Below are positions 37,627-58,318 of a stretch of 64,000 bases of DNA, one piece after another. The notes below the pieces were generated by a model. That model did no database searches, was not told the DNA's origin, and saw only the letters and a program-made list of their open reading frames with translations. The stretch comes from an uncultured Parachlamydiaceae bacterium (GTDB taxonomy: Bacteria > Chlamydiota > Chlamydiia > Chlamydiales > Parachlamydiaceae). The first letter of the stretch is position 1; each line of letters begins with the position of its first letter. The stretch is from assembly GCA_963752155.1 (NCBI GenBank), contig CAVVXH010000002.1:32001-96000 (forward strand), given 5' to 3'. A program made the translations under genes and the position numbers.

Positions 37627-37642
37627 AAGTACTCCTTATTCG

Positions 37643-37945: not shown

Positions 37946-37975
37946 TTTCTCCTTTAAAATATTTCAAACACGAGT

Positions 37976-38644: not shown

Positions 38645-38838
38645 TTTTTGCCTCTTGTTAAATTTTAACGAAACTCATATCGAGTTGTTTTTACTGTTCT
38701 AGTGACATTACCAGTCGATTTCTGAAAATATTTGAGTCTTTGAATATATGAGTTTCTGTCTGAATTTTTTGAGGTGTGAAAATAGCCTATCTTCGAGCTA
38801 AAAATTAACACTGAGAAGTATATAGCCTCACATTCCTT

Positions 38839-39204: not shown

Positions 39205-39220
39205 TGAGTTACCTATTTAG

Positions 39221-39835
39221 TTAAGCTTGTTTTTGACATAAAATTCCTACGACTGCCAATGGCCTCCAAGTGGCTCCATGATTGTGGGGCTGAGAAGCTC
39301 CTATTGCATTTGAAGAACTATTCATCCCTTCTGTTGTTCCTTGTCTTGGTCGTTGATTTTTGGCTCCGTGGGCATAATGCGAACTCGTATTGCTTTGATC
39401 AGAACCAAAAAAGTACTGGTGAGTATGGTTCGGGATTTGATTAATGGTTAGGCCGACACCTGGCTGCTGCCAAGTTCCTGCTACGGTGTTACCTGCTGGT
39501 CCATAAAGACCGCCTCGAAGAGCTAAAACGCAATCCCCTAAAAAATTGATTGGTAGCCATCCATCTGGAGCAACGTTTTGATAAAACCAGCATAAAGTTC
39601 CTGCTGCAAAACCGACCTGATCAAATCTAATCTGATAGTTGCTTGCAGCGCGCCTTATCATAAAAAGATCGCTCGCCACAGCTGATCCATTAGGTAATGT
39701 TGGGAAGAGAGAAATATCAATCGTTCGAACTTTATCAATCGTCACTTGTTTATCGGTTAATCCTTGGCGAATGATCGTTGTATCCCCATCATCTGCAACA
39801 GAAGCGACTGGTAAGCCTGGAATTTGTACTGACAT
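39221..39835 (-). CDS. Tail collar/short fibre-like protein
   Basis: WFYQNVAPDGW collar-like motif; LTINQIPNHTH and QPHNH metal-binding tip motifs; AAGGAG RBS before the ATG at 39835. Confidence 0.7.
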   Translation of the reverse strand: MSVQIPGLPVASVADDGDTTIIRQGLTDKQVTIDKVRTIDISLFPTLPNGSAVASDLFMIRRAASNYQIRFDQVGFAAGTLCWFYQNVAPDGWLPINFLGDCVLALRGGLYGPAGNTVAGTWQQPGVGLTINQIPNHTHQYFFGSDQSNTSSHYAHGAKNQRPRQGTTEGMNSSSNAIGASQPHNHGATWRPLAVVGILCQKQA

Positions 39836-39843
39836 AAATCTCC

Positions 39844-40326
39844 TTAAGGTGTTGGGTACGTTTTTGTCTGGCCCCAAACAAGAATATCTGTAGCTGTGCC
39901 GCCATTAACGATTTGATTTCCTGCTAAAGTTCCTGCCCCAAGACTCAAGGTATTATTCGAAATGACCGTCAAAGTAGGAGCTAATCCTGGTTTTTTTGCT
40001 CCAACGGCAAAAATGTATCGAGTGGGGTTGGCTAAATCTACGGCGGTTAGAGTAATCAAAGTTCCGACTGTCCCGTCATAGGGGAAAAGACCTACTCCAT
40101 TTCCATCGGTCAAAATAGCTAATTCCTCCTGCTGTTTTAAGAAGGCCAGCCAGCGATTTGTGTATCTTCCCAACCAGTTGAACCAATTTCGAGGTGGAAA
40201 TTCTAAACGAGCCCAACCTTCTAATTTTTTTTCAGTAGGCGGTTCAAGAACGTTGTTTTGTCCTGATATTGGATCTACAACATCATTTTCTGCCCATTCA
40301 GGTAAAATTGTAGGTTTAAGCACCAT
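39844..40326 (-). CDS. Baseplate/tail-fibre attachment protein
   Basis: WA...GW...PPRNWFNWL fibre N-terminal anchor motif; follows the wedge genes. Confidence 0.65.
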   Translation of the reverse strand: MVLKPTILPEWAENDVVDPISGQNNVLEPPTEKKLEGWARLEFPPRNWFNWLGRYTNRWLAFLKQQEELAILTDGNGVGLFPYDGTVGTLITLTAVDLANPTRYIFAVGAKKPGLAPTLTVISNNTLSLGAGTLAGNQIVNGGTATDILVWGQTKTYPTP

Positions 40327-40336
40327 TGTTAACTCC

Positions 40337-41092
40337 TTAAGGTATTGGCGGCTGCGAGCCGTTAAACATGATGACTTCGGCTAATTGTCCAGCCCCTGTC
40401 GTATCAATAGGGATTCCAAATTCGGCAAAACCTCCGCCAAAAGTTGGATTAGTCACTCTGCCAGCTTGCACAGCTAGAAGATCGCCTGTATTAATTTCTA
40501 AATTTTCCAAATCAAATGGATTAGCTTCATTAGGTGCGACAAGAAGTAGATCTTCGACGGGGTCCCCGCTAAAAACAAAAGGAAGCGGAACATTGTAAGT
40601 TGCAGTAATGGGAGTGTATTGAACGCCTGCTGGACTGACAGATTGAATAGCAGTAACAAGTTGTTCGGGAGGATTTGGAAACACCAGACCATCAGTGGAC
40701 ATTTGAAAAGCTGCGGGATAATATTCATGGTAACGGATTTTATTCGCTTTTGTGAGGAATTTGAGAACGGTAATGACTTCTTCAGGTGTGCCATTTGCCT
40801 TATTTATAAAAATTTGAAACTTCAGTCTTTCTCTGTAATCTTCATCGGATTCATTTGGTAAACGCGCAAGACCAAGAATTTCACCAAGTCCATCCAGCTG
40901 CATTCCAATTGAGGTTTCCAAGGAGCGTTGAAATTTTAAGTCTTGATCGACATTGTCTATTTCTTGCATTGACGTGACAAAGGCACGAATAAATCTTTGA
41001 AAACGGCTATATTCTCCATCAACGAGACTTTGCTGAAATTGACCTGCCAAAAGGGCAATTGCTCTTTGAACGTGATTGGTTATTCTAACCAT
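40337..41092 (-). CDS. Baseplate wedge protein (DUF2612-like)
   Basis: GMQLDGLGEILGLAR...SDEDYRERLK..I..N..NGT and PAGV; downstream of baseplate J. Confidence 0.78.
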   Translation of the reverse strand: MVRITNHVQRAIALLAGQFQQSLVDGEYSRFQRFIRAFVTSMQEIDNVDQDLKFQRSLETSIGMQLDGLGEILGLARLPNESDEDYRERLKFQIFINKANGTPEEVITVLKFLTKANKIRYHEYYPAAFQMSTDGLVFPNPPEQLVTAIQSVSPAGVQYTPITATYNVPLPFVFSGDPVEDLLLVAPNEANPFDLENLEINTGDLLAVQAGRVTNPTFGGGFAEFGIPIDTTGAGQLAEVIMFNGSQPPIP

Positions 41093-41150
41093 GTCACCTC
41101 CTCAAACAGTAGGGTCAACCATTTTGTTGACGTTAGCATAATGGTTGTTA

Positions 41151-43139
41151 TCATACTGTCACCGTGATTCTTGTTAGATCAAAGACGGATATTTCATTTT
41201 CTGCGATAACGATATCTGCTGTACCAAATAGGGGAGTATCCCCTGGTTCATTCGTGGATGCAATTTGCATCACGCCGCTAGCGATTCCGGGAACACTAAA
41301 AATCTGAGCAAGGACGCGTTGTAATAGAACGTCTATGCCTATACCTAAAGTAGATCCATATGTGTTAATGGCTGCTGCCACTAAGTCTTGACCATTTGGA
41401 GGAAATACTTCCTCTGCATATAGGGTTAAGGCAACCGTAACCCAAATGTAGATTGGGGTGGGGCGGCTAAAATTGATGACTTGGAATTCACCTTGTGAGT
41501 CGGTGATGGTAAACGCAGTATTCCCGAATGTTTGGATACCTGCTGGTTTCGTGGTCCAGATTTTATTTGCGACGTCAGCATCAGTGCCTCCTTGTACGAC
41601 AGCTTCAAAACTTTTTGGAACTCTTCCGCCTTTAATAACCGCCGTTGCTTGTGAAGCTCCTCCGCTGACAGTGAAATCATTGGGGATCATTGTTACTTCA
41701 ATAGCGGTTGCCATATCCATAGTGATGGTTCTATTGGCTGTCCCGCCAACGGTTGCAGAAACAACTTCAGGTTGATTTTGAATCAAGGCAGCAATTACGT
41801 TCATGGTAGCTAAATGAGAAGTTGCAAAGGTGACGGTTGGCAATGTCGTACCATTTAAAACGACGACTATGGTATTTCCTGTGACCAAATCTTGATTTAA
41901 TACGATCAGAATTGGTTCTTGAGTCAATGTACTATTTTCGAAAACTAGAGCAGATATTACCCCAGGTACTTGCTGAAGCAACCTTGCTCTTATAGATTCA
42001 ACTGTGCCAGCTCCCAAGAGTCGAAGCGAATTGTTTCGACGTATTCTTAATTCGGCATCCGTTTCAATGAAACGTCCTGTCACTCCAGCCTTAAGGTTAT
42101 TTATTGATATCCAACCTGAAATGGGAGTGAGGATTTCGGTCAATGTATTGACAGGGGCAGCGATTGGACCAAAATCTTGGGATAGAAAAACAACAGGAGT
42201 AGATTGGGCAGTGATGCTTAAATTAGTTCCAACAGCAATGGAAAAAGGAACGTCTGACTCATCAGCATTGATGGTTATGGTTCCATCCATATTATCTATG
42301 GCCGCCACAGGTTGAATCCCAGCATTGACTACGGAAGCAAGGGCTGCTGTTAATGCGTTATTTGATGCTGGGGTTTGATAAGTAATTGCATAGGTAGGTT
42401 GGCTTGCTCCGCCAGTGATCACGATTGAATTGACTATGGCATTGAACCCAACATTTGGAATGATGGTGATAATATTTGGATTCGTTGGTGTTGCAGAAAG
42501 AACGGCAGGGGAAGTGGCAATCTGTGCAGCTAATAGAGCCAAAGTTGTGTTGTTATTCGTAGTAAAAGGTACCGCTGCTAATTGAACTCCATTGATGGTA
42601 GCAACTATTGAATTGGAAGTAACAAAACTCCCTGTAAAGGTGATGATAGGCAGCGAATATGAAAAGGCCTGATTGTTGATTAGAGCCGTATAAATTTGAG
42701 CTGCCAAAGCGCTAACTTGAATAGTTGCGGATGCTGCCTGTGTTCTTGTAATAATCGTGTTTTGTTGAGCAAAGAACACAGCTCCGGTATCGGGGATTCT
42801 AGCGAGGGCTCCTTGATTGATAAGAGTGCCATCTAATCCAGCGCAGACGCCTATAACTCTAGTTTGTTGAGCGGCAAGTCGAGTGATGCCATTTAATTGA
42901 ACGACGTTATCGAGGCTGATCCCTTCCGCGAAGTTGGGATATTGGCTGAAATAAACATCCTCCATATTTTCCCAAAGATCGGCTAATACTTTTGAAAATA
43001 CTCCGATTTGCTGGCCAAATATAGATTGCGGATCTAAGTTGATATCGCCAAATTCTGCGAGCAGCTGATTTTCTAAATCAGTTTGAATATCGACTAATCG
43101 TTTAGCTTTAAATCCCTGAGCGGTTAAACCAAATGTCAT
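41151..43139 (-). CDS. Baseplate J/gp47-like protein with inserted domains
   Basis: FGLTAQGF, AEGISLD, GRFIETDAELRIRR, VQGGTDADVA.KIW..KPAGI.TFG, INFSRP. Confidence 0.9.
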   Translation of the reverse strand: MTFGLTAQGFKAKRLVDIQTDLENQLLAEFGDINLDPQSIFGQQIGVFSKVLADLWENMEDVYFSQYPNFAEGISLDNVVQLNGITRLAAQQTRVIGVCAGLDGTLINQGALARIPDTGAVFFAQQNTIITRTQAASATIQVSALAAQIYTALINNQAFSYSLPIITFTGSFVTSNSIVATINGVQLAAVPFTTNNNTTLALLAAQIATSPAVLSATPTNPNIITIIPNVGFNAIVNSIVITGGASQPTYAITYQTPASNNALTAALASVVNAGIQPVAAIDNMDGTITINADESDVPFSIAVGTNLSITAQSTPVVFLSQDFGPIAAPVNTLTEILTPISGWISINNLKAGVTGRFIETDAELRIRRNNSLRLLGAGTVESIRARLLQQVPGVISALVFENSTLTQEPILIVLNQDLVTGNTIVVVLNGTTLPTVTFATSHLATMNVIAALIQNQPEVVSATVGGTANRTITMDMATAIEVTMIPNDFTVSGGASQATAVIKGGRVPKSFEAVVQGGTDADVANKIWTTKPAGIQTFGNTAFTITDSQGEFQVINFSRPTPIYIWVTVALTLYAEEVFPPNGQDLVAAAINTYGSTLGIGIDVLLQRVLAQIFSVPGIASGVMQIASTNEPGDTPLFGTADIVIAENEISVFDLTRITVTV

Positions 43140-43498
43140 GTTAGTAATTCCTGCGTTATTGTGATCTGCCCTTGGACAGTGTCCACAGAGAAAGTCACGG
43201 AATAAATACGCCGTGTATCGTCAAAATTACTTGTGAAACTGAGAATTTGGTTTACACCTCGAGTAGAAAGAATCTCTTGCTTGAGAACGCTTTCCATTCG
43301 AATTTGATTGGGGGATTTGATGAAAAAATCTTGATAATAGGAAACGCCTGCAGTGATATCTAAGAACCATTCTCCCAAAATAAAGCGCAAGCGAATAGCT
43401 AGATTTTGAGCGATCTGGTCTTGATCCTCAACGAATTGCAAGTCAAAATCTTGTAAGAGTAAATCGCCAGTTGTTGTGTCTAGCGCTATATCTTTCAT
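43136..43498 (-). CDS. Baseplate sheath-initiator (gp25/gp46-like)
   Basis: DIALD..TGDL, IAQNLAIRLRFILGEWFLD..AGV; upstream of baseplate J. Confidence 0.8.
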   Translation of the reverse strand: MKDIALDTTTGDLLLQDFDLQFVEDQDQIAQNLAIRLRFILGEWFLDITAGVSYYQDFFIKSPNQIRMESVLKQEILSTRGVNQILSFTSNFDDTRRIYSVTFSVDTVQGQITITQELLT

Positions 43499-43585
43499 GA
43501 AGCCTCGTTAACTCAAAAACGTTTCCTAATACGTTTACACATGGGTATTTGAGTTAATTAAGGCTATTGGATACTTGAGTAGTTT

Positions 43586-44236
43586 TTAAGGGATTGTACC
43601 CTTAAGAGCATCTATAGATGCTTTCAATGAGGCATATGTCGGCACAGTGCCTTGGAATATTGGGTTTCCAACTGCGGTTGTCACAGAGGTTGTCAAAATT
43701 CCTAGTATTTTACTGACAATATCGAGAACTTCTGTAGAGCTGTTCCCGATCGCCACTTTACCAGCAGTTTCAATTTGAATGTCACCACTTTCTTTGATTC
43801 TTATATTAGAGCTTTTATAAGTTAAAAGCACGTCCGAGTTGTTCTCAGCTAAAGAATTTTCTGTAAAAGGAAAAAGCCCCATGATTGCAACAGCATCGGA
43901 TAAGTCGAATTTCCTTGGATCGTTGGGTGCTACATTGCCTCCTACTGATTTCCAAAGATCTGTACTCCTTTCAATAAACAAAAGCAAGCAGGTGTCGCCT
44001 TGAACAACTGGGAAAGTCAAACTAGCACCGCCTGCTTTTGGAAAAATTACTGGGACATTACTTAAAATAGGCAAATCCAATGTTGTCCCATCTAAATAAC
44101 TCTTTTTCAAGGCCGGTTGAATTTCAGCTTTTTGTTTCGTATAGTCATAAGAAACAATGACTCCTGGCAAAGCGGTATGGACATCATAAAGCTGAAATTG
44201 AATTGCTTGTCTTAAAGCATCAGTGATCGTCGTCAT
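43586..44236 (-). CDS. Baseplate spike (Gp138/gpV-like)
   Basis: VHTALPGVIVSYD, LSNVPVIFP, FPVVQGDTCLLLF.ER, RKFDLSDAVAI.G. Confidence 0.85.
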   Translation of the reverse strand: MTTITDALRQAIQFQLYDVHTALPGVIVSYDYTKQKAEIQPALKKSYLDGTTLDLPILSNVPVIFPKAGGASLTFPVVQGDTCLLLFIERSTDLWKSVGGNVAPNDPRKFDLSDAVAIMGLFPFTENSLAENNSDVLLTYKSSNIRIKESGDIQIETAGKVAIGNSSTEVLDIVSKILGILTTSVTTAVGNPIFQGTVPTYASLKASIDALKGTIP

Positions 44237-44454
44237 TCTTCATCACCTTGTGCTATTGTTAAACAATCAAGGAGACCATCGCGGATTTTGGATAAAGCCC
44301 AACCTAATTCTTCTAAGCCATCATCGTTATTTAAATAATGATTTACAAACTGATCCCTTTTATATCGATCGCCCCAGCCACAAAATTCAATATTTAGTAA
44401 CTGGTCGAGTTTTTCTCTTATTCTTCCTAAATCTTCTAAACGTTCTGCTTTCAT
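44233..44454 (-). CDS. Small acidic hypothetical protein
   Basis: ATGA overlaps with both neighbours indicate translational coupling; ~73 aa. Confidence 0.55.
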   Translation of the reverse strand: MKAERLEDLGRIREKLDQLLNIEFCGWGDRYKRDQFVNHYLNNDDGLEELGWALSKIRDGLLDCLTIAQGDEE

Positions 44455-45314
44455 ACTAAAATCACTTCCATTATTGATCGCCAATTTGGACCGAATAAAT
44501 CTCCCTCATGCTTTATAGAAAATACCGCATAAGGTCCATTAAGTCCGATTCTTTCAGATTTGATATTAAGCCTATCACCAGGGAGAATATCAGGGCGAAG
44601 AGTGGTTTGAACGATATATCCAGTTCGAGGGCCATCCAGATAGACAGCCGCTCTCTTATCTGTATAGCGCTGAGGAATTCCGATCATGCCAGTGTCGGCA
44701 TTGATTTCTATGGCTGGTTTTGAAGTTGTTCCATATTGAGGAATGATTTGAAGCTTTCCATTTTGAACGCTCCATCTCAGACCGAGTCTTAAAACTGCTT
44801 TATCTAGGGCGTTTTTACCCATTCCAGCATATTCGAACCCTTGCTCATAAACAACATTGTCAGTAGCAGTAAACTCAGAAATAGATAGCCCAAGTTGATC
44901 GGCGATCGTTTGGACAACCTGACGGACTGGGACCTTTTCCTTGAAGCTAACGGTAATAGACTTCTGGTTAAGAATTCTTTCTCCGTCTCCGCAGTCAAGT
45001 GTAGTGACGATTTCTGGCTGATCATAGGCATGGCTGACTTGGGTGGTATTACCAATGAAAAGCAATTGTTCACCCGCGTCTTCTCGATACCCGGCGGATA
45101 AGATAACTTGGTCTCCATAATCTTTAATCCTGTTCCTATTTTCTTGACTGAGGTTCCAAATTTTTACAGATGCTGTATTGGTTGACCAGCTCAAATTCTT
45201 CTGAATAGAAAAGGAAATGCGAAGAGCTGACAGCTTAATTGAGCCAATATAGCCATTAAAAGTATTGTTTCTCAATCCAACTTCTACGGATGCTATTCGA
45301 TCAAACCTGGCCAT
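44451..45314 (-). CDS. Baseplate hub protein
   Basis: ISFSIQK..NTASVKIWNL, LSAGY, DCGDG, WSVQNGKLQI, TGMIGIP, HEGD..GPNW. Confidence 0.8.
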   Translation of the reverse strand: MARFDRIASVEVGLRNNTFNGYIGSIKLSALRISFSIQKNLSWSTNTASVKIWNLSQENRNRIKDYGDQVILSAGYREDAGEQLLFIGNTTQVSHAYDQPEIVTTLDCGDGERILNQKSITVSFKEKVPVRQVVQTIADQLGLSISEFTATDNVVYEQGFEYAGMGKNALDKAVLRLGLRWSVQNGKLQIIPQYGTTSKPAIEINADTGMIGIPQRYTDKRAAVYLDGPRTGYIVQTTLRPDILPGDRLNIKSERIGLNGPYAVFSIKHEGDLFGPNWRSIMEVILV

Positions 45315-45635
45315 TTAAGCGAACTCCCCGAGAGAATAATAGATGAGTTCAGTTACCTCGCCCATGTCTAGACGTTGAATTTTTCCTTCTCCTCCAATGA
45401 TATTTTGGCAAACGATATCTCCTGTGGGTTTGCCATCATTGACATATTGAGAGGTTAAGTTATAGTTAGCGACGACTTTTATCCCAAGAATGATGGGAAC
45501 TAAATCGCGAGTTAGAATATCCATGACCCAGTATTCATTCATTGCGTTCCATCTAAAAGATAAAACGAATGTTTTATTATCCAACTCAATTTGTTCTTGC
45601 CATTGGGCGGGTTCTTTAAAAGGAATAATTTGCAT
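45315..45635 (-). CDS. Baseplate plug-like protein
   Basis: IELD..FVLSFRWN..NEYWVMDI..GIKVV...LIY; position between the Dit-like and hub genes. Confidence 0.7.
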   Translation of the reverse strand: MQIIPFKEPAQWQEQIELDNKTFVLSFRWNAMNEYWVMDILTRDLVPIILGIKVVANYNLTSQYVNDGKPTGDIVCQNIIGGEGKIQRLDMGEVTELIYYSLGEFA

Positions 45636-46279
45636 TACACCACTCCTAAGATTAAATTTTTGCTGGCTAATACGTTAGGGAGAATCGTGGGTTGCACAGA
45701 GATCAAGGATTGCACGCCTACATTAATCCCGCTTGAGGCCTGATCTTTTAGACTATTGACAGGATCATTTTGAATCAGGGGATAATTGGCGTTGGAAGCT
45801 ACAATGTCTCGAGGAATTTTGTTTTGTACTCCACCGAAAACATTTCCTTGGTCAAGTTGCAATCTAACGCTTGTATCTATGATGAGCCTTTGTAATTCGA
45901 TTGTAAAAGTTAAAGACTGACCTGTCTTTATATCTCTGGGGACATCTAAAACGGTAATAGCCATGTTTTGATATACTTTTAAACCTGTGACCACGGTCAC
46001 AGGCTGCCTGGATTGATGAAGAGCGATGAGACGGTTAAATGCATCGATTGAGCGATTAAAAGGGGCAAAAATACTCAAAGGAGTATCTGAAACAAGGCCG
46101 ACCAACACTAAAACGTCGGGTTCGTTGATAATATGATCCGATATGATTGTTCCATCTTCAATCGGATAGTTCGTTACGCGCGAAGAGAAGCGATGCTCTT
46201 CCCGAATGGTAACATCTAGATCGATTGACCCAACTTTTGGGCTAGGATATTTTTTTCCAAATAGCAGAGATAAAACCAT
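45635..46279 (-). CDS. Dit-like baseplate/tube initiator protein
   Basis: DVTIREEH..SSRVTNYPIEDG..ISDH, VVTGLKVYQNMAI; follows the tape measure. Confidence 0.78.
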   Translation of the reverse strand: MVLSLLFGKKYPSPKVGSIDLDVTIREEHRFSSRVTNYPIEDGTIISDHIINEPDVLVLVGLVSDTPLSIFAPFNRSIDAFNRLIALHQSRQPVTVVTGLKVYQNMAITVLDVPRDIKTGQSLTFTIELQRLIIDTSVRLQLDQGNVFGGVQNKIPRDIVASNANYPLIQNDPVNSLKDQASSGINVGVQSLISVQPTILPNVLASKNLILGVV

Positions 46280-47385
46280 TACTCCACCTGAGGATTGTTG
46301 TTATAGATTTCCCTAATCTTATCTATGAAAGCATTGTCAAAAGCTTCATCGAAAGACTGGTGAATAGCGATTTGCTGCTGATCAGTCGTTCCTGGAGGAA
46401 TCTGCATATCGACTTTAGTATTGATATTGAAATTGGCTGGAAGCTTGCCTTGTTTTTGTTGTTCTATCAAGGCATTGAAAAAGAAGGCGTCTTCCTCGTC
46501 CACTTTTCTTTTAACCATATTAAGAGTTTCACCGCCGAATAATTTGGCAACTTCTTCGGTTATCGCATCCGCAATAAACGAAAAGCCCCCCTTAATTCCT
46601 TCTGTGGAAAAGACATCTGCAATCACTCCAAAGCCTTTAAAAGCATCTCCATTCAAAATCTGAGTGAATATTCCAAGAGCCTCAGTGATGGCGGGTAAGA
46701 GCTTAACTACGAAAACTTCTGTCAGTTGTGTCAGCTGATTTTTAAAAACCGCTAGATTTCGAGAATATTGACTTAGACTGGGGATTCCATCTTTCAAGGC
46801 CTTAGCATATTCGGTATGTTTTTCTGTCAGCAATCCAATGCTATCGCCGGCTGCCTTGGCGAAATCTATATATTTTTGGGCGTCTTTTTCACCAAAGAAA
46901 GCGACAGCAACCTTTAATTTATCTCGATCATTGCTGAGAGTATTAATATGCTTGAGGATGTCGATAAATAATTGATTGGCATTCTTCAATTCACCAGTGA
47001 AATTATCTCTAATTTCTATCCCTGTGTAATAAGCAATTTCTTGAAGCTGTCCCATTCCCCATTGAGCATCTTGAAGCATTTTATTCAAACCGGAAAGGGT
47101 AGCATCAAAATTGCTTGGATCAATTCTAAATTCTTCGGCAGCCTTTCTTAACTTGATAAATTCTTCGAATGAAATGCCAATACTCTTAGCGAGATCATTG
47201 GCATCCAATGTGGCATTTGCAATGTCATTGAAAAAGTCTAGGGTTTTAGCAACGAATGCAGTTGCAGCTGTTGCTGCAATAGCAAATTTTGTTTTAAAAC
47301 CTATGATTGTGCGATTAAATTGCTCAACGCCTCTTTGATCGACTTGAAAGCCTAATCTAGTGACTAATTCTCTAACGACTGTCAT
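46279..47385 (-). CDS. Tail tape measure protein (short, 368 aa)
   Basis: VVRELVTRLGFQVD N-terminus, helical composition, position right after the chaperones. Confidence 0.78.
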   Translation of the reverse strand: MTVVRELVTRLGFQVDQRGVEQFNRTIIGFKTKFAIAATAATAFVAKTLDFFNDIANATLDANDLAKSIGISFEEFIKLRKAAEEFRIDPSNFDATLSGLNKMLQDAQWGMGQLQEIAYYTGIEIRDNFTGELKNANQLFIDILKHINTLSNDRDKLKVAVAFFGEKDAQKYIDFAKAAGDSIGLLTEKHTEYAKALKDGIPSLSQYSRNLAVFKNQLTQLTEVFVVKLLPAITEALGIFTQILNGDAFKGFGVIADVFSTEGIKGGFSFIADAITEEVAKLFGGETLNMVKRKVDEEDAFFFNALIEQQKQGKLPANFNINTKVDMQIPPGTTDQQQIAIHQSFDEAFDNAFIDKIREIYNNNPQVE

Positions 47386-47641
47386 TTCTTCGACCTTTCC
47401 TTTTAGATTCTTCCATCAGGTCGAGTCGCATATCCAGCAAGGCATTTGCCCTCAACAGATCATCTAGATTCCATGTGCGCTCGATTTCCTCTAAAGAGGC
47501 TATTCCTTCTAATACTAACCGCCAGAGAAGGAACTCATCTTTTAATTCCGTATGGAGGTTTTTCTCGTATCTGGCTGACGATTCTGCGGCATCGGTGTTG
47601 CTTCCTTGAATAGGCCTCCAATACCGCTCTCCCCAAAAAAA
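47372..47641 (-). CDS. Tail assembly chaperone GT-type extension (-1 frame)
   Basis: Overlaps the chaperone in the -1 frame; WRLV..GIASLEEIERTWNLDDLLRANALLD; T TTT TTT heptamer at 47635-47641. Confidence 0.65.
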   Translation of the reverse strand, partial: FFWGERYWRPIQGSNTDAAESSARYEKNLHTELKDEFLLWRLVLEGIASLEEIERTWNLDDLLRANALLDMRLDLMEESKRKGRRNDSR

Positions 47642-48018
47642 GAACCGAAATTGCAATCTACCACGAAGGCCAAGACCTGCATCAAAGTTGGTAGATCGCC
47701 TGCAAATTCAACATCTATTACAGAATCGGTTAATTCCATTCCCTCTTTTCTGACTCCTTGGCATAGCTCAAGGACTAAACTTTCAAATGTTTTGTCATCC
47801 AATTGGGACATTAAAGATTCAATAGCTTTGACAGCTTCTCCTTTTGAAAAAGGAAGCCCGGCCATGCTTTGATCTTTGCCTCCAGGAAGGAATAATTGAG
47901 CCAAAGCAGGTCCAAAGATCCGCAAAAGCTTTGCCTTCATTCTTAAAGCTCTTCTAGCGGGTAACTGAGTACAGGTATAAACCGATCCATTGATTTGTTT
48001 TTCTCGTGTTTCAATCAT
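47542..48018 (-). CDS. Tail assembly chaperone
   Basis: INGSVY...LPARRA...FAGD...NFGSFF; lies between the tube and tape measure genes. Confidence 0.75.
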   Translation of the reverse strand: MIETREKQINGSVYTCTQLPARRALRMKAKLLRIFGPALAQLFLPGGKDQSMAGLPFSKGEAVKAIESLMSQLDDKTFESLVLELCQGVRKEGMELTDSVIDVEFAGDLPTLMQVLAFVVDCNFGSFFGESGIGGLFKEATPMPQNRQPDTRKTSIRN

Positions 48019-48452
48019 TAGACGTTTACTCCATTGCTACCAACGAAGACGTCCAGATCAACTAGATCAAGAACCCAATCGCGATTAGCTAAATCTTTAC
48101 CGAATTCAGAAGATGGATATTTCTTCACCCAGCCAGTAGCGCTGAAGTAAAGCGAATTCCCGCTCAAGTCTTTGATTAAGATAGGCACTACCCCTGCATT
48201 CGTTAACTCATCAATATTAGCAAATCCTGAAAGCACATCATTGCTAGGGCTTGATTGTTTTAAGGTTAGTGTCATACTTCCTGAGCGATTGTTACTTTTG
48301 ATACGCGTGCTTGTACCATCCGCGCCAGTAACTTTCGCCCATTGATCGTCATCTCTATCAACTGTTAAGAAAGTTCCATCAGCGAAGCCGCTCATAGGAA
48401 TCCCACCCACTGTAATAATGACCTGCTTAGGGTCATAAGTTCTTACTGACAT
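48018..48452 (-). CDS. Tail tube protein (DUF3277-like)
   Basis: TYDPKQV, GFADG, GADG, LKQSSPSN, IKDLSG; follows the sheath. Confidence 0.85.
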   Translation of the reverse strand: MSVRTYDPKQVIITVGGIPMSGFADGTFLTVDRDDDQWAKVTGADGTSTRIKSNNRSGSMTLTLKQSSPSNDVLSGFANIDELTNAGVVPILIKDLSGNSLYFSATGWVKKYPSSEFGKDLANRDWVLDLVDLDVFVGSNGVNV

Positions 48453-48469
48453 AATTATCTCCTAAGTAT

Positions 48470-50881
<2,412 letters not shown>

Positions 50882-50892
<11 letters not shown>

Positions 50893-51064
50893 CTTCTACC
50901 CCATACAACACGAGCACAGAATGAAGCTCGAAGCCTTGCTGATAATAGGTGTCATATTTGACATCGAATAACTTCCATGCATTGGCTGTCACTTCATTGA
51001 GGAAGTCATTGAGCCTGTCTTCTAACGTCATAAAAGAAGTGTCTGAAATAATTTTTGCTTTCAT
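50882..51064 (-). CDS. Small hypothetical protein
   Basis: 60 aa, AAGGA RBS, LEDRLNDFL...DVKY...SVLVLY; overlaps the next gene. Confidence 0.55.
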
Positions 51065-51081
51065 GGTTTTTCAATTCCTTT

Positions 51082-51438
51082 TTATTGTCCTTCGAGCCTT
51101 AAAACTAAGTATTTATAATGGTTTACCAGCCCCATTGCTGGTGCGTTTTGCCATGGAAAAACCTGAACCACTTCAAAAGTTTTTCCGAAGAAAAGAACAA
51201 GGTCGGGATTTACACTTGTGACCGTATTGATGAGGGTTGAAGTAAAAAGCTTATAGCCTTCTGAATCTCTTCTTGCCTCTGGCAGCTCCTGCATTTCTTC
51301 ACCCTTCATGGGCTGGATGCTGGAAGTTATTTGAGTATCTGTGTAAGCGCCATCAATCCAGCGCCCATTCGTATAACCTCCGCTTTGAAAGCGACGAAGT
51401 ATTACTGGAGAGCGAAAGATTTCAAATGGCGATGTCAT
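51082..51438 (-). CDS. Head closure/head-tail adaptor
   Basis: GGYTNGRW, SIQP..LPEARR, DLV.F.GKTFEV...W...HYK; neck-module position. Confidence 0.7.
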   Translation of the reverse strand: MTSPFEIFRSPVILRRFQSGGYTNGRWIDGAYTDTQITSSIQPMKGEEMQELPEARRDSEGYKLFTSTLINTVTSVNPDLVLFFGKTFEVVQVFPWQNAPAMGLVNHYKYLVLRLEGQ

Positions 51439-51917
51439 TTGAGTACCACCTTATAGCGCACTGACTGCACCATCTGACCGAAGTCAATTAAAGGTTTGGA
51501 GCTTTTTTTAATAGCGATAGTCCTTGGAGAATTGGGAGGGGAAACAATTGCACGGATTTTTTGAACAATTAGTTTTGTCATTAGCTGTCCTATCAATCCT
51601 AACGATTTTTCTGTTGTTCTTTTACCGTCCAAAATTTTAGTGTATTCGCCCTGTATCGCCTTGTTTATTAATGCCTTGTTCTCATCAAAGCTTGTAGACA
51701 TAAAGGGTCTGGCTGGAATTGTATTCGTCCCGAATTCATTCCCTGCTGCTATTTGAGGAATTGAAAGTCCAGCAGTTTGCTTCCGCTGTCCTTTTACCTG
51801 TGTCTTTGTGGCGGTTCCCTCTTGAAAACCGACCTTGACGTAGGAGCCATCGAGCAAAGCAATTTGCCGTTGGATTTCATCAAATCCTAGATCCTTATCC
51901 TTGACAACAGCACGCAT
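51435..51917 (-). CDS. Neck/tail completion protein (HK97 gp10-like)
   Basis: VKVG, NEFGT..IPARPFM, PPNSPRTI..K.SSKPLID.G. Confidence 0.78.
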   Translation of the reverse strand: MRAVVKDKDLGFDEIQRQIALLDGSYVKVGFQEGTATKTQVKGQRKQTAGLSIPQIAAGNEFGTNTIPARPFMSTSFDENKALINKAIQGEYTKILDGKRTTEKSLGLIGQLMTKLIVQKIRAIVSPPNSPRTIAIKKSSKPLIDFGQMVQSVRYKVVLK

Positions 51918-52308
51918 TGATCACCGCAAAATTAGGGGGTAAATTCGTTACAGTTGAACCGATGACGGTTCGTTTGATCAAATCTTTGTACAACCTGCCA
52001 TATTGGGTGGCATTCAGGATGGAAGAATCGGGCGAGATTGCAAGCCCAATGGACAGTTCTCCCTCGCTGAGATTAGTAGCCACTCCTGTTTGAGGACTGG
52101 TTTGCAATTGAAGCCAATGAGCCAAAAGATAGACGTAAGCTAGCACGCCGCAGCAAGATAAGACCTGTTCATTGACTTGGCATCTCAACAAACCAATCAT
52201 GGTATTGTAGTTAGCCAACTTCGTTGGATCGGTCGTATAGAACTGCGGTGCAATAACGAATAACGTATCAATTATCGTTTGACTTGGTATTGGATCCGAA
52301 ATGCTCAT
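51895..52308 (-). CDS. Head-tail connector (DUF4054-like)
   Basis: APQF, LLAHWL, SEGELSI, TQYGRLY; start placed at 52308. Confidence 0.75.
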   Translation of the reverse strand: MSISDPIPSQTIIDTLFVIAPQFYTTDPTKLANYNTMIGLLRCQVNEQVLSCCGVLAYVYLLAHWLQLQTSPQTGVATNLSEGELSIGLAISPDSSILNATQYGRLYKDLIKRTVIGSTVTNLPPNFAVINACCCQG

Positions 52309-52651
52309 TTTCCTCTTCCTCCGCTTGATGAGAAATTTTATGAAGCTGTTTTTTAGCTGCATCTACGACTTTGTCACGGCCATCTTCATCGATAATTCGA
52401 GTCAGATAGGCGTGGTCATAAATTTGAGGGATGAGTTTCATCATCTCCTTAACAGACTTCTTGCCATCCGCTTCCTTGTCTGAAGATTCGGGAATAATCA
52501 CGATGATCCCTTCTTCGACCCTATGTTGAAATAAAGGGTGAAGGAGGAGGGCTTTGAGTTCGCCCTCCGGAATCTCATTGATCCCTGGCATCAGGCGGCT
52601 GGTGAAGTTACAATAGTAGACGTTCTTACCGTTGTACTTGACTAAAGCCAT
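52268..52651 (-). CDS. Hypothetical head-associated protein
   Basis: LMPGINEI motif; starts at the capsid gene stop. Confidence 0.6.
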   Translation of the reverse strand: MALVKYNGKNVYYCNFTSRLMPGINEIPEGELKALLLHPLFQHRVEEGIIVIIPESSDKEADGKKSVKEMMKLIPQIYDHAYLTRIIDEDGRDKVVDAAKKQLHKISHQAEEEENEHFGSNTKSNDN

Positions 52652-53580
52652 TAGATTCCCTCCCCGATCGACAGTGAAAGTGGATAATAGATGATGATCC
52701 CGCCGTAACGAGATTCGCAGTTTACGATGAACTCAAGGCCACGTTCTTGAGGTGGATATTGAGTAAATGGCATTGGAATCTCCATCGTGAGCTTATCAGG
52801 GTTCTTCTCATAAGCGATCATGATGTCAACACCGCCAGGGCCTGCACCCTTCAATTCTGGAACCCAGTCCACAGTTGTGATGAACGGATTATTTTGAATA
52901 AAATATTCCAAAATCGTCGTATCGCTGTTAGCGGAACGAGGAGTTGAAGAGATCAACGTGTATTGATCGATAGGAAGAATCAACGTGTTAGGCATTTCAA
53001 CCCCATTTGTGAGGCCTACAATACCGTTGGACAATTGATTCATATCGCGCAAGATTTGATCAGGTGTTTTATTGACCCAAAGTGTAGAAGCGCCTGTACC
53101 ATCTGCAGGAACAGAAGCTGCTGGAATGTTTGGGTTATTAGTCAGACCAAGGATGTTGGAACCATTATCTCCAAACCAGGCAAGCTTATTCACCTTTTGG
53201 TCATTGGCTCTTCGAGTGGCGTTTGCCTGACGTTGTGTAAGACTTCTGCCTACAAACATCGCGGCTCTAATTTCCTGCATCGAATACCCATAGCTGGCTC
53301 CAATGGATTTCACTGGAGTGATGAATTCCTTACCGCGAATATCGCAACGAGGGAAGTCATCGGCATAGCTCGAAATGATTCGTGCAAGACCTGTTTCTTC
53401 AAACGATTGGTAAGTGATCGATTCCGCACCCGCACCAGCTTCTGTGCTAACAGGAATTAGCTTGATCGCTTTTAGCGGAGGGAATTCAATGTCGTACGAC
53501 TTTGATTTTATGGACTCGAGCTCACGAGCAAAGAACGCAGTCTCTGCCGAGTCGAGATTAACGCTTACAATTCTATCCAT
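52651..53580 (-). CDS. Major capsid protein (DUF2184/HK97-like)
   Basis: FFARELE, YGYSMQEIRAA, AWFGD..GLTNNPN, PNTLILP, RYGGIIIYYP. Confidence 0.9.
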   Translation of the reverse strand: MDRIVSVNLDSAETAFFARELESIKSKSYDIEFPPLKAIKLIPVSTEAGAGAESITYQSFEETGLARIISSYADDFPRCDIRGKEFITPVKSIGASYGYSMQEIRAAMFVGRSLTQRQANATRRANDQKVNKLAWFGDNGSNILGLTNNPNIPAASVPADGTGASTLWVNKTPDQILRDMNQLSNGIVGLTNGVEMPNTLILPIDQYTLISSTPRSANSDTTILEYFIQNNPFITTVDWVPELKGAGPGGVDIMIAYEKNPDKLTMEIPMPFTQYPPQERGLEFIVNCESRYGGIIIYYPLSLSIGEGI

Positions 53581-53592
53581 TTTACCTTCTCC

Positions 53593-54375
53593 TTAGTTCG
53601 GCAAGTTGATTTCTAATGTTGCAAGAGCACCAGCTGTAGCTCCAACGGTGTACCTTGCAGTTGGAAGGGCGATTGCACGGCCCCCATCTGAGTCCGCACG
53701 GAATCCACCAGGAAGCAGAAGACCATTAGCGGCAAATCTCCAGTACACTGGGCTGTCGCTTGTTAGGTTTTGTTCAGCTGCAACATAGATACGGCCTCGA
53801 GTGAGGAGAGATACGCAATCTCCTTGGAAATAAATCGGATTCCCAAATGATCCGAGCGGATTCAATGGGTTCGGTTTATTTTGAGTTCTTGCGCCTACTC
53901 CGTAGAATGTATCTTGAGTGGTGTTTGTTATAGTTGCGGTGGCTTGCGATGCGCCGGCTGTGACTACGAATGAGTTAACGACGGCGACACTTCCCTCTGT
54001 GGCTTTCACTGTGAGGGTATGGTTGCTTGGATCGCTCACGGCTGCAGAAGCAATGTGAGGTTGAGCCAAGATCGCAGCTGCAATGGCATTCATTGTGGCT
54101 AGACTGGAAACCGCAAACGTGATGGGTGCTAACGCTACCCCATTGACGCTGACATTGATCACGTTGCTCGTGACAAGGTCGGCACTTATGACAATGGTTG
54201 ATAGATTAGACTGGGGGAGGCGGACTACGTAATCTTGACCGATTACTTTTGCAAGTCCGAGCCCTATATTAAAATTCTCAAATGCTATAGGAGAAAGGAC
54301 GTTTTTAAAGCCGGAATCGGCTAAAAGACCTACGCTCCCGACATCCATTAAAAAGGGATAGCTTAGTTGTGGCAT
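53593..54375 (-). CDS. Head decoration/cement protein with inserted domain
   Basis: Lies between scaffold and capsid; GDCVSLLTRGRIYV...VYWRF...GGFR. Confidence 0.75.
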   Translation of the reverse strand: MPQLSYPFLMDVGSVGLLADSGFKNVLSPIAFENFNIGLGLAKVIGQDYVVRLPQSNLSTIVISADLVTSNVINVSVNGVALAPITFAVSSLATMNAIAAAILAQPHIASAAVSDPSNHTLTVKATEGSVAVVNSFVVTAGASQATATITNTTQDTFYGVGARTQNKPNPLNPLGSFGNPIYFQGDCVSLLTRGRIYVAAEQNLTSDSPVYWRFAANGLLLPGGFRADSDGGRAIALPTARYTVGATAGALATLEINLPN

Positions 54376-55655
54376 GGTATTTTACCTCCGGGCTTGTAAC
54401 CATTTTTCATCTTGTCGATCATTGCCTGGCGAGCCATGGCGGAATCAGCAGGTTGATGATCGAACTTAGTTCTGTATTCAACTGGAGTTGCAATGACTTG
54501 AGATGGGGCAGGGGTCATATCTTCGAGCAGAGCATCAAATCTCGCTTGAATATAGACTGCAGTTTTTCCATCTAAATTTACGTTCTTTTGGCGAGCCTTG
54601 ATGACTTCCTTTTTGATTTCCAGATCGGACATATCATCAATTCTAGCTAAGGTTTTAGAGTCCAAGACACTCTCTGCAACTTTTTGCAGTTTGACCCGCT
54701 CTTTAACCAGAGATCTGATAGATGCGGCGTCCATATTGTTGTATTTGTCGTTCTCTCTTTTTTCCTTGTCTTGTGGCTTTAAGGGAACGCGTTCTCCATT
54801 GGGAGCTTTGACAGGAGTTTCATGGGTTGCATAAGGATTTTCCTTAGACATGTAACCCACTTCTTTTTCTTCCTTTTCTTCTGCTTCGTCTTCCTCTTCT
54901 TTGAGGTCGACATCCCCATTTTTTATTGAATTAAGTTCAGCAGAAAGCTTGTCTTTTTCTTCAGCTATTCTGCTATTTTCTGCTTCGAGATTTGCGATGC
55001 GGGCAAGCAGCTGCTCAACTTGATTAGCTACATTGTCCTCCATCAAAATCTCGTCATCGTCAATTTTGACTTTCCTTTTAGCCATATTGGCCTCCTCTAT
55101 TAAGATTTCTTCTGCATCGAAACTATCTAATGCGATTCTTGCCTCGTTGCCTGCTCTGGCATTGTCAACAATGCTTAAGTGGTTGTATTTGATATTGGAT
55201 TGACGGAAGTTATAAGGCTGGCCGTTGTAGCTTCCTTCTTCCGGGATGAGATCGACGGTGTAACCGAGAGATAGTTCTCTACGGTTTTTGTCAGTAACGT
55301 CTTTAACGCTTGCAAGATCTGTAATTACTAAATTTGAAAGGACAAACTCACCGTCTTGGGTAATTGTTTCCCCTGTATAGCCAATGGCAAGACGCTTGGC
55401 ATTTTCAGCCGAGACAAGGCGTTCTTGAGGATGCCCATTTGTCACAGGAATCATTTTCATGGTGTCCAGACTGTCTATTTTAAAAACTTCGTCAGGATGA
55501 CGCAGTTCTTTGCGAATAGTTCCATCTGGGTTTTTATAGAGAAAAACACCCGTGCGGGTGACTATGGCATTGGCTTTGATGTACCCTTCATCTGTAATGA
55601 AGGCATCGCCTTTGACTTGTCCTCTATCAAAACGAGCAACATCATTTAATTTCAT
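54363..55655 (-). CDS. Prohead protease/scaffold (DUF2213)
   Basis: TDEGY, RTGVFLY, PVTNGHP, RELSLGY, NHLSIVDNARAG; acidic coiled-coil C-terminus. Confidence 0.9.
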   Translation of the reverse strand: MKLNDVARFDRGQVKGDAFITDEGYIKANAIVTRTGVFLYKNPDGTIRKELRHPDEVFKIDSLDTMKMIPVTNGHPQERLVSAENAKRLAIGYTGETITQDGEFVLSNLVITDLASVKDVTDKNRRELSLGYTVDLIPEEGSYNGQPYNFRQSNIKYNHLSIVDNARAGNEARIALDSFDAEEILIEEANMAKRKVKIDDDEILMEDNVANQVEQLLARIANLEAENSRIAEEKDKLSAELNSIKNGDVDLKEEEDEAEEKEEKEVGYMSKENPYATHETPVKAPNGERVPLKPQDKEKRENDKYNNMDAASIRSLVKERVKLQKVAESVLDSKTLARIDDMSDLEIKKEVIKARQKNVNLDGKTAVYIQARFDALLEDMTPAPSQVIATPVEYRTKFDHQPADSAMARQAMIDKMKNGYKPGGKIPCHN

Positions 55656-55792
55656 TTCTCTACCCAAAAATCAAAATGTTAAAATCACAACTTTTTCAAC
55701 TCGAATAAGTTGGTTAACTGGTTAGCTGGAGGTTGGGTAGAGGTGTATGGATTACTGGAAATCTTATTGGTTGGATAGATGATTGGTTGAGT

Positions 55793-56646
55793 CTAGATAT
55801 CTAAGAGTCCTTCTAAAACTGGAACAGCGACACATCGGCAATTTATATCAGTTCCCGGATGGCCAGTATCTTTCGGTGGATTATCCCAACGAAATTTCTT
55901 ACCATCATGGGCTTTGTGGGTAGAACGAACTCTTTCATCGCCTGCCGTTTGCCAGATGTATTCTTCGACACCTAATTCTTGCTGCCTAAGTTTTGTTAAA
56001 CTCGCATTCAATTTGGATGTCTGATCTCTCGCGATTAATTTCGCGCGCCGTCTAGTAATTCCGAATCTTTCTTGGATTGATTGAGTCATTGAGTGAAATC
56101 TGCTTCCTTCCTGCAAGCCCCTCTCGATGATCTGTGCGACCTGCTCGAGTTCTTGCTGCTGGAAGAGAGCGGATTAATTGAGCATTTTGGCTTCCGAACA
56201 ATTTTAACTGGTCTTGCAAGCCAAGGCTGGTCGATAAAAATATCAATCCCGAAAACGGAATTATTGATTCTATCGAACTGCCTTTTATTGTATCTGGCGA
56301 CTTGTACGCCAATTATTTTTGATTCCGCTATGGTTTCTTCAACTTTACCCTTTATAGCGTGTATTACAGAATTTATCAATCTTTTTAATGCATCAGAAAA
56401 ATCATCGCCCCTGGCCGGAGATGTTGGATAGAGCTGTTCCACCTCTAAAATCAGAGAGGGGAGTGCTGGGATAACGATTTCTTTGATAAGGTTTTTTAAT
56501 TCGTTTGTTAGAGAGAAAAGCACTCTCATATATTCTCTTTCCAGAGAAGATGGCGGATGCCATTTAGGAGGTTTTTTCATCTTTGCTGTTTGAAGCTTCC
56601 CCATGCGCCTCTGTTTAATTTTAGCAAGCTGATCAATAGAAACCAT
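55793..56646 (-). CDS. Minor head protein (Mu gpF/SPP1 gp7-like), split by two +1 frameshifts
   Basis: RAKLIARDQ, YIWQTAGDERVR..H, PG.DINCRC; three ORF pieces join if single bases at ~56220 and ~56158 are removed. Confidence 0.82.
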
Positions 56647-56648
56647 GG

Positions 56649-58107: not shown

Positions 58108-58318
58108 ATTCTCCCAAGATTTAGAAACTTCGATGATCTTTGCTTCTTTGGGAAATTGGGTATTAACGGCGAATAGAGTGCCGTTTTTGAGTAGATGGGT
58201 CTTGATTTAAGCAAATACTCTAAAAAAAGAGAGAATTGCTTAAAATTAATTTATCACAAGAATAAAAAAAATGATGCACAAAATTTCTTTTTCAGCATTT
58301 TTGTCGAATTCGAGCTTC

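What the first reader, a model, noticed from the sequence alone, without database searches (positions are those of the whole stretch)
41630..54200. One ~90-aa domain inserted four times into head decoration, sheath and baseplate J
Seen: four alignable copies. Decoration ~53925-54200 (ISADLVTSNVINVSVNGVALAPITF..LATMNAIAAAI..VNSFVVTAGASQATATIT). Sheath ~49730-50005 ([54 protein letters not shown]). Baseplate J ~42378-42650 (FTGSFVTSNSIVATINGVQLAAVPF..VNSIVITGGASQPTYAIT) and ~41630-41912 (LNQDLVTGNTIVVVLNGTTLPTVTF..LATMNVIAALI..FTVSGGASQATAVIK). These insertions explain why the three proteins are long. Inference: the particle surface would be coated head to base with many copies of one module. 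It may mediate adhesion, uptake or protection in the eukaryotic host cell the particle must cross, by analogy with Ig-like domains on phages.
Basis: partly seen in the sequence, partly recalled or inferred. Interest (0 to 1): 0.78.

Follow-up and report, generated by a model that had tools for sequence, protein, structure and literature searches.

The report
Swappable plug-in domain coating chlamydial phage
One small protein domain is inserted four times into the head, tail-sheath and baseplate proteins of a phage-plasmid of environmental chlamydiae; it is predicted to share the fold of known outer phage-tail domains, also occurs in phages of unrelated bacteria, and likely works as an accessory sticky coat rather than a device made for eukaryotic cells.

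Summary
Observation confirmed: four copies of a ~92-aa domain (34-52% identical, z 11-24) sit in the cement protein, the sheath and twice in baseplate J of an E217/Pam3-type myophage module. It belongs to a ~94-kb integrated phage-plasmid of a Parachlamydiaceae genome. The predicted fold (six strands, one helix, pLDDT 95) is not Ig-like. It matches the outer sheath domain of myophages (Z 8-9), the T7-type nozzle fibre dock, Bas63 wedge 2 and the Bxb1 capsid and tail extensions, a published case of one domain shared across a virion. Two copies are nested inside older domains of that kind. The family has 957 clusters and no Pfam model. It also occurs in a Rhizobium phage, a Bacillota prophage and prophages of another phylum, which argues against a eukaryote-specific role. 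Added here: the head copy was exchanged by recombination as a domain-sized block (70% against median 97% identity; AU p=0.0015), and cultured Criblamydia sequanensis carries all four copies, so tests are possible. This chromosomal copy has frameshifted portal and gp7 genes. The scan found this domain four times before on other DNA. Function is untested.

The parts
53923..54201 (-). Domain copy in the head cement (decoration) protein, aa 59-151; the copy exchanged by recombination among relatives
49730..50005 (-). Domain copy in the tail sheath, aa 118-209, nested in an extra outer domain
42378..42650 (-). First domain copy in baseplate J (wedge 2), aa 164-254, nested in the wedge-2 domain that matches the same fold in Bas63
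41628..41915 (-). Second domain copy in baseplate J, aa 409-504, between Bas63 wedge-2 residues 317 and 324
53593..54375 (-). Cement protein gene, 260 aa (PF22758; core like Pam3, XM1 and E217 cement, Z 15-17)
48470..50356 (-). Tail sheath gene, 628 aa (DUF3383, phrog_205)
41151..43139 (-). Baseplate J / wedge 2 gene, 662 aa (phrog_6)
50006..50107 (-). N-terminal half of the older outer sheath domain that hosts the insert (aa 84-117)
   Evidence: matches the uninterrupted outer domain, probability 93%
49559..49729 (-). C-terminal half of the host outer sheath domain (aa 210-266)
   Evidence: probability 98%, E 5e-14
49271..49552 (-). Uninterrupted standard outer sheath domain (aa 269-362), aligned to the outer domain of solved sheath 9zdk gp76
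42651..42740 (-). N-terminal half of the host domain in baseplate J (aa 134-163)
42204..42377 (-). C-terminal half of the host domain in baseplate J (aa 255-312)
   Evidence: probability 97%
52651..53580 (-). Major capsid protein gene (PF09950), without the domain
56649..58107 (-). Portal gene, split by a frameshift in this copy (418 + 146 aa frames; one frame of 485-493 aa in relatives)
55793..56646 (-). gp7 / Mu F minor head gene, split in this copy (186 + 107 aa; 283 aa in relatives)
33704..64000 (.). Window part of the ~94-kb integrated phage-plasmid (G000:C2:65704-159663), running on beyond the window

Best explanation
The four segments are copies of one mobile ~92-residue domain, predicted to fold on its own like the outer domain of myophage tail sheaths, inserted into loops of the cement, sheath and baseplate proteins, where it would coat the virion and likely serves as a weak, many-copy attachment surface. 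Shown: the four copies, their spread to other virion proteins and other insertion sites in relatives, nesting inside older outer domains, purifying selection, and at least one domain-sized recombination of the head copy. Predicted: the fold and its outward position. Inferred: several hundred copies per particle (about one per capsid subunit, six per sheath ring, 24 on the baseplate); no need for it in assembly, since relatives lack it at each site; and the binding role, most likely to the surface of the bacterial host (here chlamydial elementary bodies), with the tail and baseplate copies possibly also touching fibres as same-fold domains do in Bas63 and T7.
For: Fold: pLDDT 95, six strands and one helix. 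Best matches are the P-SCSP1u nozzle domain (Z 9.9, rmsd 2.4, 84 aligned), A-1(L) sheath (8.9, 2.5, 84), T7 gp12 (8.6, 2.7, 86) and phiTE sheath (8.3, 2.3, 76); the top 14 of 50 rows are all outer domains of phage virions or flagellar proteins. In the whole cement model the core and the insert match different structures. Sequence link to a solved sheath outer domain: E 6.5e-4; in three distant prophages the family fills that domain's usual place in ~455-aa sheaths. Mobility: 957 clusters; of the first 100 scanned, 36 cement, 13 DUF3383 sheath, 8 T4-type sheath, 8 baseplate J, 3 terminator, 1 unrelated, 31 without a family; collar proteins too. Of 35 cements, 17 have it after residue ~58, 10 after ~120, and 8 have two or more copies. 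dN is below dS in every pair with measurable dS, yet dN is higher than in the host cores in most pairs. Head-copy exchange: lowest of 556 windows, 70% against median 97%; trees of domain and flanks conflict, AU p=0.0015. Precedents: the Bxb1 extensions are 47% identical, external and dispensable (PMC8704799); GbpA domains 2-3 bind the bacterial surface (PMC3257281; Z 6.1 to GbpA 192-291).
Against: No binding was shown. The four copies hold 2 Trp/Tyr in 372 residues (0.5% against 3.4% in the cores), unlike classical sugar-stacking modules. The Bxb1, flagellin and GbpA matches are at Z 6-7.5, a range the tool says may reflect a common arrangement, and a shared fold shows no function. Foldseek on the isolated domain found no PDB match at E<=0.001. 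Sequence similarity between the insert and the older outer domains in this genome is weak (hhalign probability 0.5-12%). The exchange may be a single event, and other parts recombine too (a 73% window in the portal). This copy's portal and gp7 are frameshifted, so it may make no particles.
Confidence: 0.48

Rival explanations
1. Protective or stabilising coat: the domain binds nothing outside but shields or braces the particle, for example against proteases in phagosomes or in the environment.
For: Lys+Arg 0.8% against 6.9% in the cores (p 8e-7), Asp+Glu 3.0% against 9.1%, Ser+Thr 23%. Stabilisation by extra sheath domains is proposed in PMC9230969.
Against: The same bias is in the older outer domains (Lys+Arg 0.4%) and in distant members (2.3% against 6.7%), so it may be general to such surface domains. 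A pure shield gives no clear reason for exchange of alleles at one site.
Confidence: 0.2
2. One reading: the coat mediates adhesion to, uptake by, or survival in the eukaryotic host cell that the phage must cross.
For: 10 of 400 Chlamydiota genomes carry exactly four copies, over five families; the four-site pattern was seen only in this clade and its uncultured relatives. The hosts are obligate intracellular bacteria (established knowledge; 4-10 nucleotide-transporter matches in three carrier genomes).
Against: Family members occur in Rhizobium phage RHph_N46, a Bacillota-labelled genome and 8 of 300 genomes of another phylum, several with cement plus sheath copies. A phage can enter a eukaryote attached to elementary bodies, as recalled for chlamydial microviruses (no call).
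Confidence: 0.13
3. Fibre or appendage dock: the domain is a protein-protein platform that holds tail fibres or other appendages on the particle.
For: In Bas63 the fibres anchor on sheath D2 and the short fibre on wedge-2 D2 (PMC12609058). T7 gp12 has an outer fibre dock of one helix and six strands (PMC6702177). These are top fold matches, and one J copy sits inside the wedge-2 counterpart.
Against: The element keeps its older outer domains in sheath and wedge, which could do this job. Hundreds of head copies would far outnumber any fibres (inference).
Confidence: 0.11
4. Nearly neutral passenger: a compact domain that spreads by recombination among virion genes because loops tolerate it, kept only foldable.
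For: Gained and lost at many sites; same-fold extensions of Bxb1 are dispensable in the laboratory; 0 of 400 other genomes of G411's phylum carry it.
Against: All four sites are kept across five chlamydial families while synonymous sites approach saturation; an extra ~92 residues on hundreds of subunits is costly (inference).
Confidence: 0.08

Closest known systems
Outer (extension) domain of myophage tail sheaths: D2 in Bas63, D3 in phiTE, SED in Milano; also in Sf14, A-1(L), E217, XM1, Mu
   Same: Predicted fold (Z 8.9 A-1(L), 8.3 phiTE, 7.4 Mu, 7.3 Sf14); profile match to the outer domain of 9zdk gp76 (E 6.5e-4); the family fills this position in distant prophage sheaths. Function is called 'not entirely clear' in PMC12609058.
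   Different: Here it is added on top of the normal outer domains, nested inside them, and also placed in the head cement and twice in wedge 2; 16-22% identity to the solved examples.
C-terminal extensions (CTE) of mycobacteriophage Bxb1 capsid gp14, tail tube gp19 and distal tail protein
   Same: One ~90-aa domain shared by head, tail and tail tip of one phage: 47% identical, external, dispensable (PMC8704799; CTE-like domains in the distal tail protein, PMC13252515). Fold matches to capsid 308-395 (Z 6.5) and tube 198-283 (Z 6.8), and to a third chain.
   Different: Terminal extensions on a siphophage, not loop insertions in cement, sheath and wedge; no sequence match found; Z values are middling.
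Ig-like accessory domains of tailed phages (Hoc, major tail, fibres)
   Same: Small domains shuffled among virion surface proteins and proposed to aid weak adhesion (as cited in PMC9230969).
   Different: The model has a central 13-residue helix and six strands, not an all-beta sandwich; no Pfam Ig family matched any of the 4 copies.
Fibre-dock domain of T7-type nozzle protein gp12
   Same: Best fold matches (Z 9.9 P-SCSP1u, 8.6 T7); described as one helix plus six strands on the outer surface (PMC6702177; that residues 150-248 are this domain is my inference).
   Different: A fixed single domain of a podophage nozzle, 12-15% identity.
Criblamydia sequanensis CRIB-18 plasmid 1 (NZ_LK031773.1, 89.5 kb)
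   Same: Sheath 99.7% identical, all four copies present, 94.8% DNA identity over 24.5 kb.
   Different: Free circle with intact portal and gp7 and the other allele of the head copy (72 of 93 residues identical). Its papers note phage genes but not virions or this domain (PMC4208316, PMC7846284).

Membership tests
Myophage sheath outer domain (D2/D3/SED) fold | Compact domain of about six strands and one helix that superposes on solved examples | tested here: met
   Z 8.9 and 8.3, rmsd 2.3-2.5 over 76-84 residues (predicted model)
Myophage sheath outer domain (D2/D3/SED) fold | Inserted after the N-terminal ~80-100 residues of the sheath, away from the tube | tested here: met
   In the window it is nested in an extra domain at that place; in L131-L133 it is the domain at that place
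Myophage sheath outer domain (D2/D3/SED) fold | Sequence-detectable homology to a solved member | tested here: inconclusive
   One hit at E 6.5e-4 (9zdk gp76); hhalign to the genome's own outer domains only 0.5-12%
Myophage sheath outer domain (D2/D3/SED) fold | Contacts retracted tail fibres (Bas63) | not testable with these tools
   Needs a virion structure
Phage Ig-like domains (I-set, FN3, Big_2) | All-beta sandwich without a central helix | tested here: not met
   helix at residues 33-45 at pLDDT above 90, in the isolated domain and in the whole protein
Phage Ig-like domains (I-set, FN3, Big_2) | Match to Pfam Ig-family profiles | tested here: not met
   0 of 4 copies at E<=0.05
Phage Ig-like domains (I-set, FN3, Big_2) | Shuffled among unrelated virion surface proteins (works like) | tested here: met
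Bxb1-type CTE domains | Same fold | tested here: inconclusive
   Z 6.5-6.8, rmsd 2.8-3.0 over 82 residues; three Bxb1 chains match, but the range is middling
Bxb1-type CTE domains | C-terminal position on capsid and tail tube subunits | tested here: not met
   All four copies are internal; capsid and tube lack it
Bxb1-type CTE domains | Dispensable for infection | not testable with these tools
   Relatives without the insert exist at each site, which is indirect
Flagellin_IN (PF07196) / flagellin D2 domains | Match to the Pfam profile or fold | tested here: inconclusive
   No Pfam hit; fold Z 7.5 to FliC 4nx9; one Atlas cluster at 0.90 with 22% PF07196
Phage-plasmid | Virion module plus plasmid replication and partition genes on a circular replicon | tested here: met
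   G129:C4 has a 55-base terminal overlap, ParA, primase-helicase, integrase, terminase and portal; the Criblamydia plasmid is a closed circle
Phage-plasmid | Makes infectious particles | not testable with these tools
   No virion report found in searches

The most novel reading that the evidence does not exclude
The head-borne copy is a swappable specificity cassette: alleles are exchanged between phage-plasmids under host-driven selection and decide which chlamydial elementary bodies, or which protist surfaces, the particle sticks to. That would let a tailed phage-plasmid ride into amoebae and move between chlamydial families, and would define a non-Ig superfamily of virion adhesion domains linking sheath outer domains, Bxb1 extensions and flagellin D2.
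Probability: 0.17. Interest if true: 0.7.

Novelty: new variant of a known kind. Interest (0 to 1): 0.36.

Why it matters
It defines an uncatalogued family (957 clusters; no Pfam family over its cut-off, no PHROG for the window copy) of a non-Ig domain that phages move between head, neck, sheath and baseplate proteins. It ties that family to the outer sheath domain whose function structural papers call unclear. The principle is known from Ig-like domains and Bxb1, so the surprise is moderate. The practical value is that a cultured amoeba symbiont carries an intact four-copy element, and that two natural alleles of the head copy exist, so both the function of these domains and the route of a tailed phage to an intracellular bacterium become testable.

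Tried and rejected
Pfam on the four copies: no family over its cut-off. PHROGs on 79 family members: two single marginal hits, none for the window copy. Foldseek on the isolated domain: no PDB match at E<=0.001; no Ig domain is among the 50 rows listed, which does not exclude one. ESM Atlas: unnamed clusters, one weak Flagellin_IN lead. tblastn of the whole cement in 50,697 phage records: no match. Homodimer prediction of the domain: no answer, score 0.00, not used either way. Tree of 99 domain copies: copies cluster by site rather than by phage (16 label changes against 59 shuffled), but with 92 columns deep forks are unresolved, so no order of insertion is claimed. Naming the phylum of G412 by marker families failed. 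Cluster look-ups gave no host names. RNA-labelled runs X19 and X20 look like one data set filed twice and are contigs, so they do not show expression. Positive selection on the domain was rejected: dN stays below dS. A tailocin or gene transfer agent reading was rejected: terminase, capsid, primase-helicase and ParA lie on the same element. The Bxb1 structure paper (PMC12124961) is not held, so that precedent rests on PMC8704799, PMC13252515 and the PDB matches. PMC3991601, PMC13419713 and PMC12582341 added nothing.
Full report
Observation. The region 35.9-58.1 kb is a minus-strand virion module of the E217/Pam3 type: portal, gp7, DUF2213 protease, cement (PF22758), capsid (PF09950), neck, DUF3383 sheath, tube, a 368-aa tape measure, baseplate and glycine-rich genes. 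The genome holds no fifth copy. Removing the inserts gives normal lengths for cement and baseplate J, but leaves the sheath about 90-110 residues long.

Host and element. The genome is in the same family as G007, whose matching contig is titled Parachlamydiaceae. The window also has a topoisomerase-SWIB fusion (a chlamydial hallmark, recalled). The terminase lies about 26 kb beyond the portal. A 70-kb relative, G129:C4, has a terminal overlap and carries ParA, primase-helicase, integrase, terminase and cargo genes. It maps to G000:C2:65704-159663 with the junction inside parA, so the window holds part of an integrated phage-plasmid of about 94 kb. Portal and gp7 are frameshifted here but whole in G129 and in the Criblamydia plasmid, and runs X1 and X2 agree with the relatives at those places. 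Decay and assembly error cannot be told apart. The tail block compared (C2:73855-84047) has no indels. The plasmid of cultured Criblamydia sequanensis CRIB-18 has a 99.7% identical sheath and all four copies; a note of this scan pointed me to it.

Fold. The cement model (38 sequences, pLDDT 89.9) splits in two. The core matches Pam3, XM1 and E217 cement (Z 16.9, 16.2, 15.2), and residues 55-156 match a different set. The isolated domain (79 sequences) folds at pLDDT 95.1 into six strands and a 13-residue helix. Against 48,161 chains the best rows are the P-SCSP1u nozzle (Z 9.9), A-1(L) sheath (8.9), T7 gp12 (8.6), phiTE sheath (8.3), FliC (7.5), Bas63 wedge 2 residues 137-226 (7.4), Mu and Sf14 sheaths (7.4, 7.3), a phicrAss001 capsid chain (6.8), Bxb1 tube and capsid (6.8, 6.5), FliD and GbpA (6.0-6.4). 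Values under 8 are middling by the tool's own note, and Foldseek gave no PDB hit at E<=0.001. The family profile hits the outer domain of solved sheath 9zdk gp76 at E 6.5e-4. In three distant prophages the family occupies residues ~103-190 of 454-462-aa sheath frames, the usual place of the outer domain. I therefore read it as a mobile subfamily of the sheath outer domain. Exposure is inferred from these homologues, not measured on coordinates.

Nesting. gp76 aligns to sheath residues 3-90 and 271-628. The halves flanking the sheath copy, and those flanking the first J copy, match the uninterrupted outer domain (hhalign 89-98%; controls under 1%). The first J copy falls between Bas63 wedge-2 residues 162 and 171, inside the stretch that itself matches the insert's fold. 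The insert resembles these older domains only weakly in sequence (0.5-12%).

Distribution. The four-copy profile finds 957 of 1.84 billion cluster representatives at E<=0.001, 283 at 1e-10. Of the first 100 of 150 listed, 36 are cement, 13 DUF3383 sheath, 8 T4-type sheath, 8 baseplate J, 3 terminator, 1 unrelated and 31 unassigned. Related loci add collar proteins and tandem copies (part of that output was cut from view). Of 35 cements, 17 carry it after residue ~58, 10 after ~120 and 8 carry two or more. Ten of 400 other Chlamydiota genomes have four matches each, in five families. Outside chlamydiae it is in the sheath of isolated Rhizobium phage RHph_N46 (residues 281-376, 80 bits), in the cement of a Bacillota-labelled genome (0 of 400 others of that phylum), and in 8 of 300 genomes of a phylum I could not name (two of the 8 are marginal, E 3e-4). 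Five of those were tested for nucleotide transporters: three had none and two had weak partial matches, against 4-10 matches, the best at E below 1e-195, in three chlamydia-like carriers.

Evolution. Copies cluster mostly by site, not by phage, so they are old and not homogenised. dN is below dS wherever dS is measurable, but in most pairs the domain changes faster than the host cores. The head copy shows a sharper signal. Against G037-type elements it is the lowest of 556 windows of 279 nt (70%; median 97%; next 84%); these three elements are near-identical and count once. In two other relatives the head copy and the first J copy are the two lowest windows, and in L017 there is no dip. Against Criblamydia it is again lowest (70%), with a portal window at 73% second. 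Trees of 22 sequences conflict: the domain columns reject the grouping seen in the flanks (AU p=0.0015; I chose the group after seeing pairwise identities). This shows at least one domain-sized exchange, not a hotspot.

Chemistry. The copies are poor in Lys/Arg (0.8% against 6.9%), Trp/Tyr (0.5% against 3.4%) and Asp/Glu, and rich in Ser/Thr. Conserved positions are mostly Asn, Gly, Thr, Ser, Gln and aliphatic residues. This argues against a classical aromatic sugar-binding site. The Lys/Arg bias also holds in distant members and in the older outer domains.

Mechanism. Most likely (0.48) it is an accessory, many-copy, weak attachment surface facing the bacterial host. The rivals are a shield or brace (0.20), a eukaryote-directed role (0.13), a fibre dock (0.11) and a near-neutral passenger (0.08). 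Copy numbers are inferred: about one cement per capsid subunit (recalled), six per sheath ring, and two wedge-2 chains in each of six protomers (PMC11972413).

Literature seen. Passages: PMC9230969 (extra sheath domains, adhesion or stability), PMC11972413 and PMC10811340 (outer domain D3/SED), PMC8704799 (Bxb1 extensions 47% identical, dispensable, external, function unknown), PMC13252515 (CTE-like domains in the Bxb1 distal tail protein), PMC6702177 (T7 fibre dock), PMC3257281 (GbpA), PMC7846284 ('phage group' genes on chlamydial plasmids). Passages plus section 13: PMC12609058. Whole text: PMC4208316. Not held: PMC12124961. No supplements were read; those of the Bas63, Bxb1 and chlamydial plasmid papers may bear on novelty. 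Searches listed no paper describing this family or virions of these elements, but the library lacks most subscription papers.

Verdict. The feature is real and well conserved, and it is a new variant of a known kind: a shuffled virion surface domain of a known fold, with Bxb1 and Ig-like domains as precedents. The scan reported it four times on other genomes. Interest 0.36.

Noticed in passing
window 33704 onward (G000:C2:65704-159663): A ~94-kb phage-plasmid integrated with its junction inside parA; large cargo blocks (GNAT, NUDIX, phosphotransferase genes) separate terminase from portal.
   Followed up: partly
window 55793-58107: Portal and gp7 are frameshifted in this copy, and the terminase large subunit frame is shorter than in G129 (398 against 449 aa); decay or assembly error is not resolved.
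   Followed up: partly
G037:C397 (L006); NZ_LK031773.1 (L135): Near-identical elements (sheath 99.6-99.7%) occur in genomes of other chlamydial families, which suggests recent cross-family transfer; mis-binning is possible for the MAG but not for the cultured isolate.
   Followed up: partly
L017-L041 against L056, L063, L065, L071, L079: Several chlamydial carrier contigs are 70-98 kb while related viral contigs are about 41-43 kb; whether the capsid can hold the cargo-laden circle, or packages pieces of it, is open.
   Followed up: no
window 35866-38644: Two tandem glycine-rich genes (PF21722) and a 222-aa gene end the tail module, vary among relatives and are candidates for fibres or receptor binding; a second homologue of the 222-aa gene is at C2:142283-143026.
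   Followed up: no
window 46279-47385: The tape measure protein is only 368 aa, which implies a short contractile tail.
   Followed up: no
window 58319-59191: An AbiEii-family toxin-antitoxin gene lies next to the portal; G129:C4 has two such genes.
   Followed up: no
window 34155-35135: An aminoglycoside-phosphotransferase-family gene (PF01636) lies inside the element's left end; the Criblamydia plasmid has one at the same place.
   Followed up: no
L021 / G413: A record titled Verrucomicrobia has several strong nucleotide-transporter matches and the chlamydial element; it is probably a mislabelled Chlamydiota genome.
   Followed up: partly
L128 (G956:C1:20706-26393): Two weak domain matches (E 3e-4 to 6e-4) lie in a 15,609-aa open frame, a hint that the fold also occurs in giant cell-surface proteins.
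   Followed up: no
L065: A related phage carries six copies: cement, collar, sheath and three in baseplate J.
   Followed up: partly
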